12,537 nt of DNA from a virus, in the UHGV virus genome UHGV-0172325, one strand, 5' to 3'. Made by a program: the position numbers and the translations under genes. Positions 9,662 to 9,707 of this stretch are shown here, in pieces (position 1 is the first letter of the stretch; each line of letters begins with the position of its first letter). The notes beneath the pieces were generated by a model. The model worked only from the letters and a program-made list of their open reading frames with translations. It ran no database searches and was not told the DNA's origin.

Positions 9662-9707
9662 CGCTCTTTGTAACAACGGACATTCGTCCTACGTCGCTGA
9701 AAAGCGA
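9662..9707 (+). promoter_or_regulatory. nutR candidate: boxA (CGCTCTTTGTAACAACG) and boxB hairpin (UCGCU-GAAA-AGCGA)
   Basis: Begins 11 nt downstream of the cro stop. Same architecture and spacing as nutL, with a C-G versus G-C swap in the boxB stem that preserves pairing. Confidence 0.55.

What the first reader, a model, noticed from the sequence alone, without database searches (positions are those of the whole stretch)
9662..9707. nutR and nutL form a matched pair with compensatory base changes in boxB
After cro, the sequence GCTCTTTGTAACAACG ... CTACGT-TCGCT-GAAA-AGCGA has a boxA-like element, then about 22 nt later a 5-bp stem with a GAAA loop. The reverse complement of 7002-7047, upstream of the N-like gene, reads GCTCTTTAAACAACG ... 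CTACGT-TGGCT-GAAA-AGCCA. The two ~50-nt segments are collinear and nearly identical, and the one stem difference is a paired swap (C-G versus G-C) that keeps the hairpin intact. This is the kind of covariation expected for functional N-utilisation sites and supports the N-like call. The 4-nt loop and ~22-nt boxA-boxB spacer are as read from this sequence; I recall lambda as having a 5-nt loop and a shorter spacer.
Basis: seen in the sequence. Interest (0 to 1): 0.5.

Follow-up and report, generated by a model that had tools for sequence, protein, structure and literature searches.

The report
Phage nutL/nutR antitermination sites, tetraloop type
These two short RNA signals are the expected landing sites for this prophage's N anti-termination protein; they are ordinary lambdoid-phage control elements, differing from the studied ones only in having a four-base hairpin loop instead of five.

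Summary
Window 9662-9707 (+) and 7047-7002 (-) each carry boxA, a small spacer hairpin, the linker UACG, and a 5-bp boxB hairpin with a GAAA loop. The one boxB stem difference is a C-G/G-C swap.

The sites lie where nut sites should: after pL and before an N gene (Pfam N_peptide, E=3e-32), and 11 nt after cro. The region is about 99% identical to Stx2 phage 1717 and related phages. From the spacer hairpin onward, nutR matches the experimentally used H-19B nutR, apart from one missing loop C (GACAA to GAAA) and two substitutions further downstream. The same 14-nt boxB is annotated "Putative NutR" in Salmonella phage g341c. The long spacer is the hairpin I recall as the H-19B "reducer".

Across 148 N genes in related loci, loop type tracked the N arginine-rich motif without exception. 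ARMs 7 residues shorter go with GNRA tetraloops, and H-19B/HK97-type ARMs go with GACAA pentaloops.

The tetraloop/short-ARM pairing is a modest, untested specificity variant. Function is inferred.

The parts
7093..7121 (-). pL candidate promoter (TTGACC-17-TACTAT), overlapping operator-like AAGTACATAT
   Evidence: Consensus scan. The same AAGTACATAT half-site recurs in the cI-cro intergenic region. Position inferred, not shown.
7034..7047 (-). nutL boxA (GGCUCUUUAAACAA)
   Evidence: Read. The GCTCTTTAAAC core is kept in every nutL variant listed from loci with this N. The leader 5' of it is homologous to the P22 and E. albertii nutL leaders.
7020..7032 (-). nutL spacer hairpin (GUCGA-CUC-UCGAC)
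   Evidence: Pair probabilities 0.74-0.98. In relatives the loop varies (CUC, ACUC, ACAC, AUC) and the stem is kept. H-19B and g341c nutL have a different-sequence hairpin, GAUUC-N6-GAAUC, at the same place.
7002..7015 (-). nutL boxB (UGGCU-GAAA-AGCCA), GNRA tetraloop
   Evidence: Relatives have CGGCU..AGCCG, AGGCU..AGCCU, and one GCAA loop.
6631..6903 (-). N antiterminator gene, 90 aa, N-terminal ARM MSRKTEFKGTAASRRRARRANLQ
   Evidence: Pfam N_peptide E=3.4e-32. It is 58% identical to H-19B N with an identical C-terminal 21 aa. R3, R15 and R18, whose mutation kills H-19B N function, are conserved (PMC3526286). A GGGAGG Shine-Dalgarno precedes ATG 6903.
9381..9409 (+). pR candidate (TTGTAT-17-TATTTT), read by eye
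   Evidence: Sequence. The consensus scan did not call it. The homologous region in Stx1 phage AP005153 is annotated 'putative major rightward promoter'. Inferred.
9436..9651 (+). cro-like HTH gene; its stop lies 11 nt before nutR boxA
   Evidence: Pfam HTH_3. Annotated cro in phage 1717.
9662..9676 (+). nutR boxA (CGCUCUUUGUAACAA)
   Evidence: Kept in almost all nutR variants of loci with this N. H-19B has GCUAUUUUCACAA here.
9678..9689 (+). nutR spacer hairpin (GGAC-AUUC-GUCC)
   Evidence: Pair probability 0.98. Identical to H-19B nutR. Variants are GGGC..GCCC (compensated, L126) and GGGC..GUCC (G.U, L147). PMC3526286 states that H-19B nutR has two hairpins.
9694..9707 (+). nutR boxB (UCGCU-GAAA-AGCGA), GNRA tetraloop
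   Evidence: The identical 14-mer is annotated 'Putative NutR' in phage g341c. H-19B and HK97 have UCGCU-GACAA-AGCGA.
9737..9754 (+). hairpin in the tR1 region between nutR and cII (UAUGCGU-UUCC-ACGCAUA)
   Evidence: The region from boxB to cII differs from H-19B nutR/tR1 by 2 substitutions. That region acts as a Rho-dependent terminator overlapping nutR in H-19B (PMC3526286). The g341c counterpart AUGCGC-CAGU-GCGCAU covaries and is annotated 'Putative tR'.
6167..6184 (-). intrinsic-terminator-like site in the pL operon (GCCCTC-CAGTGT-GAGGGC + T6)
   Evidence: A further one lies at 6311-6332 (-). Presumed N targets; inferred.
12490..12513 (+). intrinsic-terminator-like site after the DnaB-like gene in the pR operon
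   Evidence: 8-bp stem, 6 GC pairs, TTTTATTT. Presumed N target; inferred.

Best explanation
These are the nutL and nutR sites of a lambdoid prophage whose early region is of the Stx2-phage 1717 type.

Proposed mechanism:
1. Transcripts from pL and pR carry, in order, boxA, a small spacer hairpin, UACG and a boxB hairpin capped by a true GNRA tetraloop (GAAA).
2. The N protein is encoded just downstream of nutL. [quoted passage not shown]
3. NusA binds the spacer, and NusB/NusE (S10) probably bind the near-consensus boxA.
4. The RNA-tethered complex stays on RNA polymerase through the conserved N C-terminus. It carries the polymerase through the Rho-dependent tR1 region next to nutR and through downstream intrinsic terminators (6184-6167 and 6332-6311 leftward, 12490-12513 rightward).
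5. The spacer hairpin shortens the effective boxA-boxB distance, as proposed for the H-19B 'reducer'.

Shown here: the anatomy, the positions, the conservation and covariation of both hairpins, homology of N, and co-variation of loop size with ARM type.

Inferred: every binding step and the antitermination itself, by analogy with H-19B, P22 and lambda.
For: Identity and context:
- The gene order is that of a lambdoid early region: N, cI, cro, cII, O, DnaB-like P. The region is about 99% identical to Stx2 phage 1717 and related phages.
- N hits Pfam N_peptide at E=3.4e-32.

Match to a studied nut site:
- From the spacer hairpin to the cII start, the nutR region equals H-19B nutR/tR1 except for one missing loop C and two substitutions.
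- H-19B nutR/tR1 supports N-dependent antitermination in vivo and in vitro. N plus NusA protect its spacer and boxB (PMC3526286).
- The identical boxB is annotated Putative NutR in g341c.

Structure support:
- In an alignment of 10 distinct tetraloop boxB variants, every cell is paired. Two of five pairs show double changes, and 0 of 500 shuffles reach the covariation score.
- The spacer hairpin is conserved as structure with unrelated sequences in nutL and nutR. It also shows a G.U intermediate and a fully compensated variant.

Co-variation with N:
- In 148 N genes, short ARMs always pair with GAAA or GCAA tetraloops at the sites detected. Long H-19B-type ARMs always pair with GACAA, apart from the SPN9CC type whose nutL did not fit the search pattern.
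- g341c N has an H-19B-like body but a short ARM and tetraloops. The loop therefore tracks the ARM, not the rest of N.
- In P22 the GACAA loop adopts a GNRA fold with the C looped out and contacted by the N peptide (PMC12550061). GAAA is that loop without the C.
Against: - No functional data exist for this N/nut pair. I found no paper describing it in the searchable library.
- Rfam has no matching family, so nothing was confirmed there.
- Equilibrium folding does not favour boxB. The minimum-free-energy fold pairs boxA with the boxB loop and 3' arm. For nutL this is -14.1 against -12.0 kcal/mol, with boxB pair probability about 0.04. For nutR it is -12.0 against -11.7.
- The covariation comes from few independent events in mosaic, closely related phages.
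- From memory, lambda work reported that a tetraloop version of lambda boxB binds N but is impaired for NusA-dependent function. A tetraloop nut site is therefore not guaranteed to behave like lambda's.
Confidence: 0.9

Rival explanations
1. The two segments are only homologous leftovers of mosaic recombination: shared module boundaries between lambdoid phages with no RNA function of their own. On this view the C-G/G-C swap is a chance pair of substitutions.
For: Lambdoid early regions are highly mosaic, and the nutR module is shared almost unchanged among phages with different cro and N genes. Within the window the swap is a single event.
Against: The spacers of nutL and nutR are unrelated in sequence yet both form hairpins. 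Stems keep pairing through double changes while loops vary. Loop size tracks the ARM of the adjacent N gene across two N backbones. The near-identical H-19B site is functional (PMC3526286).
Confidence: 0.03
2. The functional RNA is an alternative fold. The 5' part of boxA pairs with the boxB loop and 3' arm around the spacer hairpin. This hides boxA and boxB until factors bind, or serves another role such as RNA processing or stability.
For: This is the predicted minimum-free-energy fold at both sites. The base just 5' of GCUCUUU is C in nutR and G in nutL, so it complements the swapped boxB base (106 and 80 instances).
Against: - boxA (GCUCUUU) is trivially complementary to AAAAGC.
- The G before boxA is also present in the E. 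albertii P22-type nutL leader, where boxB is GCGCU..AGCGC. It therefore predates this boxB.
- Five variants carry T or A at that position without compensation.
- H-19B and g341c nutL, and g341c nutR, have no boxA to pair, yet keep boxB.
- Local hairpins should form first during transcription (inference).
Confidence: 0.04
3. The hairpins act mainly as part of the Rho-loading or termination signal (tR1/rut), or as a target for an exclusion factor of another phage, rather than as N sites.
For: In H-19B, nutR overlaps the rut site of tR1, and Rho protects the spacer (PMC3526286).
Against: This applies only to nutR, and in H-19B it coexists with N function. nutL has the same anatomy with no known overlapping Rho terminator. 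Neither boxB is followed by a U tract.
Confidence: 0.03

Closest known systems
nutR/nutL of Shiga-toxin phage H-19B (also HK97 and, by N similarity, 933W) with their 127-aa N
   Same: - The architecture is the same: boxA, spacer hairpin, CUACG, 5-bp boxB.
- From the spacer hairpin to cII, nutR is identical apart from one loop base and two substitutions.
- The N C-terminal 21 aa are identical, and the EAISS..LHRPT segment is shared.
- The tR1 region is the same.
   Different: - The loop is GAAA here, not GACAA.
- N is 90 aa and 58% identical, and its ARM is 7 residues shorter.
- boxA here is near-consensus in both sites. H-19B nutR has GCUAUUU, and H-19B nutL has no recognisable boxA. From memory of Neely & Friedman 1998, H-19B N needs neither boxA nor NusB/S10.
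- The nutL spacer hairpin has an unrelated sequence.
Putative NutR of Salmonella phages g341c and epsilon34
   Same: The 14-nt nutR boxB TCGCTGAAAAGCGA and the spacer hairpin are identical. The ARM is of the short type (GRRRERRAALQ). nutL is also a GAAA tetraloop. The epsilon34 authors predicted a novel BoxB specificity from the divergent N terminus (PMC2629481).
   Different: - g341c N is 120 aa with an H-19B-like central part.
- Its nutL stem is CGGCU/AGCCG and its spacer hairpin is H-19B-like.
- It has no consensus boxA at either site.
P22 nutL and gene 24 protein
   Same: The 5' leader and boxA of window nutL are homologous to P22 nutL. P22 and H-19B share GCGCU-GACAA-AGCGC. GAAA is that loop minus the C that is looped out in the P22 N peptide-boxB structure (PMC12550061). 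The N C-terminus is related.
   Different: P22 has a 9-nt unstructured spacer and a pentaloop. Its ARM differs: GNAKTRRHERRRKLAIER.
Lambda nutL/nutR and N
   Same: The logic and positions are the same: one site per early operon, boxA followed by boxB, an ARM-containing N gene directly after nutL, and nutR between cro and tR1.
   Different: Lambda boxB is a GAAAA or GAAGA pentaloop that adopts a GNRA fold by extruding one base. From memory, lambda has a short spacer with no hairpin. N shows no detectable sequence similarity apart from the Pfam family.

Membership tests
Lambdoid N-utilisation (nut) site | One site in each early operon, downstream of pL or pR and upstream of the first terminators; nutL precedes N and nutR follows cro | tested here: met
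   nutL lies about 40 nt after the pL candidate and about 100 nt before the N ATG. nutR starts 11 nt after the cro stop and lies before the tR1-like region and cII.
Lambdoid N-utilisation (nut) site | boxA element resembling GCUCUUUAACAA | tested here: met
   GCUCUUUAAACAA (nutL) and GCUCUUUGUAACAA (nutR), with one or two extra bases compared with the consensus I recall. The 7-mer GCTCTTT alone is not statistically unusual.
Lambdoid N-utilisation (nut) site | boxB: short hairpin whose loop adopts a GNRA(-like) fold | tested here: met
   5-bp stems with a GAAA loop. Covariation in relatives. The three-dimensional fold itself is inferred from the sequence class.
Lambdoid N-utilisation (nut) site | [quoted passage not shown] | tested here: met
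   Pfam N_peptide E=3.4e-32. The ARM SRRRARR contains the R3, R15 and R18 positions essential in H-19B N.
Lambdoid N-utilisation (nut) site | N- and Nus-dependent read-through of downstream terminators | not testable with these tools
   Needs reporter or in vitro transcription assays.
H-19B-type nut site | Dyad symmetry (hairpin) in the boxA-boxB spacer | tested here: met
   GGAC-AUUC-GUCC and GUCGA-CUC-UCGAC, with pair probabilities 0.74-0.98. Stems are kept and loops vary in relatives. H-19B nutR is reported to have two hairpins.
H-19B-type nut site | P22-like GACAA pentaloop boxB | tested here: not met
   The loop is GAAA at both sites. H-19B and HK97 have GACAA.
H-19B-type nut site | H-19B-type N (127 aa, ARM RSRRRERLKAKALANGVL) | tested here: not met
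   58% identity, 90 aa, and an ARM region 7 residues shorter.
H-19B-type nut site | Independence from boxA, NusB and S10 | not testable with these tools
   The property is recalled from Neely & Friedman 1998. Unlike H-19B, the window has near-consensus boxA at both sites, so dependence may differ.
g341c/epsilon34-type NutR (tetraloop boxB) | boxB TCGCTGAAAAGCGA after the GGACATTCGTCC hairpin, with a short-ARM N | tested here: met
   The 14-mer and the spacer hairpin are identical, and it is annotated 'Putative NutR'. Both N proteins have the short ARM.

The most novel reading that the evidence does not exclude
The short-ARM N proteins (the Stx2-phage 1717 type and the g341c/epsilon34 type) and their true GNRA-tetraloop boxBs form a separate natural specificity class. 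It would derive from the P22/H-19B class by loss of the looped-out loop base together with a 7-residue shortening and re-tuning of the ARM. In an ungapped register, the basic residues at the positions equivalent to P22 peptide K3 and R11 are alanine. On this reading, this N would not use GACAA sites and H-19B N would not use GAAA sites. That would make a clean natural example of peptide-RNA co-evolution and an orthogonal antitermination pair. It would also show that an extruded loop base is not needed for NusA-dependent N function.
Probability: 0.4. Interest if true: 0.45.

Novelty: new member of a known kind. Interest (0 to 1): 0.25.

Why it matters
The result confirms the early regulatory layout of a very common family of E. 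coli prophages, including Shiga-toxin phages. In these phages, N-dependent read-through from pR is part of the route to late-gene and toxin expression. GenBank records of the closest phages that I inspected (1717 and the Stx1 converting phage AP005153) annotate N but no nut sites. The coordinates given here could therefore improve annotation.

The tetraloop/short-ARM pairing is a small, testable addition. All structurally solved N-boxB complexes use 5-6-nt loops that mimic a GNRA fold, whereas here nature appears to use the plain tetraloop.

Tried and rejected
- **Rfam**: an E-value-threshold scan of the whole window gave no hits, so there is no curated nut/boxB family to lean on.
- **First combined pattern**: it found only nutR, because nutL boxA is one base shorter. 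I replaced it with the CTACG-boxB pattern.
- **MAFFT alignment of 42 distinct sites**: the 1-nt loop indel was placed inside the stems, so the alignment was not usable for pair counting. I counted pairs on an ungapped alignment of tetraloop sites only.
- **Genome-contig scan with the N alignment**: only 4 loci came back. One was useful, the E. albertii P22-type nutL. The hits in a Segatella MAG and in Xanthomonas pisi sit on short contigs and look like contamination; I did not pursue them.
- **PDB sequence search with N**: no hits.
- **Literature**: searches for a description of nut sites of this N type, or of a natural GAAA boxB, found nothing specific. Neely & Friedman 1998 is not in the library, so the 'reducer' concept and the Nus independence of H-19B N are cited from memory.
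- **Alternative boxA:boxB-3'-arm fold with 'triple covariation'**: considered and judged incidental.
- **Loci lacking nutR**: L051 was read and is a defective prophage with a cro-to-Q deletion, not a counter-example. L053 shows the same sequence matches but was not read.

Full report
**What is in the sequence**

On the + strand the window reads as follows:
- boxA: C9662-GCTCTTTGTAACAA-9676
- hairpin: GGAC-ATTC-GTCC, 9678-9689
- linker: TACG
- hairpin: TCGCT-GAAA-AGCGA, 9694-9707

On the - strand it reads:
- boxA: G7047-GCTCTTTAAACAA-7034
- hairpin: GTCGA-CTC-TCGAC, 7032-7020
- linker: TACG
- hairpin: TGGCT-GAAA-AGCCA, 7015-7002

It also called the segments 'nearly identical'. In fact boxA and CTACG-boxB match, while the spacers are unrelated in sequence. 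The 19-nt CTACG-boxB motif occurs exactly twice in the window, even with two mismatches allowed, and never in 200 shuffles. GCTCTTT alone is not unusual. Each isolated boxB hairpin folds at about -7 kcal/mol, with z of -2.4 and -3.0.

**Context**

The window is a lambdoid early region:
- a 90-aa N gene at 6903-6631 (Pfam N_peptide, E=3.4e-32)
- a LexA-like cI
- an HTH cro at 9436-9651
- cII, O, and a DnaB-type helicase

It is about 99% identical to Stx2 phage 1717, YYZ-2008, 2851 and related O157 phages. Parts of it are 97.5% identical to HK97.

A pL-like promoter (TTGACC-17-TACTAT, 7121-7093) lies about 40 nt upstream of nutL. A plausible pR (TTGTAT-17-TATTTT) and shared operator half-sites lie in the cI-cro gap. 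The homologous region is annotated as the rightward promoter in Stx1 phage AP005153. nutR begins 11 nt after the cro stop.

Terminator-like sites sit at 6184-6167 and 6332-6311 (-) and at 12490-12513 (+).

**Comparison with a characterised system**

The H-19B record (AF034975) and the Sen-laboratory oligonucleotides give H-19B nutR as CGCTATTTTCACAAT-GGACATTCGTCC-TACG-TCGCT-GACAA-AGCGA. From the spacer hairpin to the cII start codon, the window differs from it by one missing loop C and two substitutions.

H-19B nutR/tR1 is a working N site. N-dependent read-through was measured in vivo and in vitro. N plus NusA protect the spacer and boxB, Rho protects the spacer, and the site is described as having two hairpins (PMC3526286).

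That paper is not in the library. P22 nutL, read here, has only a 9-nt unstructured spacer.

**The loop and the ARM**

H-19B and HK97 N are 127 aa with the ARM RSRRRERLKAKALANGVL. They are only 58% identical to the window N, which has ASRRRARRANLQ. The segment between the RRR motif and the conserved EAISS is 7 residues shorter in the window N. The C-terminal 21 residues are identical.

I fetched loci with the window N, the g341c N and the H-19B N from IMG/VR and from GenBank phages. I then tabulated 148 N genes against the sites found upstream:
- Every short-ARM N has GNRA tetraloops at every nut site detected. This covers the window type and the 120-aa g341c/epsilon34 type, GRRRERRAALQ. The loop is GAAA, with one GCAA in phiSTEC1589 nutL.
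- Every long-ARM N has GACAA at the sites detected. The exception is the SPN9CC type, whose nutL did not fit the search pattern.
- g341c N combines an H-19B-like body with a short ARM and tetraloops. The loop therefore follows the ARM and not the rest of the protein.

In the P22 N peptide-boxB structure, GACAA forms a GNRA fold with the C looped out and contacted by His7 and Arg11 of the peptide (PMC12550061). GAAA is that loop without the extra base. In an ungapped register, the position of Arg11 is Lys in H-19B and Ala in both short-ARM types. This last point is my inference.

**Support for the structures**

- On ten distinct tetraloop boxB variants, all 50 cells pair.
- The outermost pair is U-A, A-U or C-G, and it is G-C in H-19B nutL.
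- The second pair is C-G or G-C.
- No shuffle of 500 reaches the covariation score, and all slid registers collapse.
- The nutR spacer hairpin shows a G.U intermediate (GGGC..GUCC) and a compensated form (GGGC..GCCC).
- The nutL spacer hairpin varies in its loop (CUC, ACUC, ACAC, AUC) but keeps its stem.
- H-19B and g341c nutL have a different hairpin, GAUUC-N6-GAAUC, at the same place.

These are few independent events in closely related mosaic phages, so the statistics should be read modestly. Of 80 loci with the window N, 74 have both sites. Of the six without a detectable nutR, L054 has N at the contig start and so lacks nutL too. L065 has only 1.8 kb upstream. L051 was read and is a cro-to-Q deletion. 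L053 shows the same sequence matches as L051 but was not read. L046 and one further locus were not examined.

**Caveats**

Equilibrium folding prefers a different structure, in which the 5' part of boxA pairs with the boxB loop and 3' arm around the spacer hairpin:
- nutL: -14.1 against -12.0 kcal/mol, with boxB pair probability about 0.04
- nutR: -12.0 against -11.7 kcal/mol

The base before GCUCUUU (C in nutR, G in nutL) complements the swapped boxB base, which looks like a third covarying position. I judge this incidental, for four reasons:
- boxA is inherently complementary to AAAAGC.
- The same G precedes boxA in an E. albertii P22-type nutL that has a different boxB.
- Five variants break the complementarity.
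- Relatives with no boxA keep boxB.

It is not excluded. No functional data exist for this N/nut pair, and I found no paper describing it.

**Known or new**

- The kind of element is textbook.
- The identical nutR boxB is already annotated 'Putative NutR' in g341c.
- The epsilon34 authors predicted a novel BoxB specificity from the divergent N terminus (PMC2629481).
- The records I inspected for the closest E. coli phages annotate no nut sites.

I therefore file it as a new member of a known kind, close to 'already known'. It is not a member of the H-19B specificity type in the strict sense, because the loop and the ARM differ. It almost certainly works like that type. The mildly novel reading is that the tetraloop/short-ARM pair is a distinct, orthogonal specificity class.

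**Verdict**

Confidence that these are the N-utilisation sites is about 0.9. Interest is low to moderate (0.25).

Noticed in passing
window 6917-6987 (- strand): A long imperfect hairpin (GAUGCAAUGCCGAAGC...GCUUCGAGAUUGCAUC) lies in the N leader, between nutL boxB and the N Shine-Dalgarno. The fold of 7086-6895 has z=-3.57, with 0 of 200 shuffles as stable. The g341c leader appears, by eye, to have a counterpart of different sequence. From memory, it resembles the RNase III-sensitive hairpin that controls N translation in lambda.
   Followed up: partly
window 9737-9754 (+): A hairpin UAUGCGU-UUCC-ACGCAUA lies between nutR and cII. The g341c counterpart AUGCGC-CAGU-GCGCAU covaries and is annotated 'Putative tR'. 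The whole boxB-to-cII stretch is nearly identical to the Rho-dependent H-19B tR1 region.
   Followed up: partly
window 6904-6975 (- strand): GenBank records of phage 1717 and the Stx1 converting phage annotate N as 114 aa, starting at the upstream ATG 6975. Alignment with H-19B N, the GGGAGG Shine-Dalgarno and the phiSTEC1589 annotation favour ATG 6903, giving 90 aa.
   Followed up: yes
window 7002-7050 and 9660-9712: The predicted minimum-free-energy fold pairs boxA with the boxB loop and 3' arm instead of forming boxB. The base 5' of GCUCUUU complements the swapped boxB base in both sites. This is probably incidental but has not been tested.
   Followed up: partly
L051 1900-2520 (also L053): Some IMG/VR loci with this N lack nutR. 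In L051, cro is truncated after about 20 codons and fused to sequence upstream of a Q-like antiterminator gene, so it is a defective prophage with a cro-to-Q deletion. L053 gives the same sequence matches but was not read.
   Followed up: partly
L090 (Salmonella phage SPN9CC), upstream of N and after cro: This long-ARM N has an odd nutL, GCUCC-GUCAA-CGAGC, with a C.C mismatch closing the loop. Its nutR, UCGCU-GACAA-GGCGA, has a U.G closing pair. It may be a further specificity variant or a decaying site.
   Followed up: no
window 9644-9658 (+): An inverted repeat CCGCUUAAUAAGCGG spans the cro stop codon immediately 5' of nutR boxA. It accompanies one 5' flank of nutR; other nutR variants have a different flank.
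   Followed up: no
L084, L087 (Segatella copri MAG) and L085 (Xanthomonas pisi contig): N genes of E. coli-phage type (41-98% identity to the window N) sit on short contigs assigned to unrelated organisms. They look like assembly or binning contamination.
   Followed up: no
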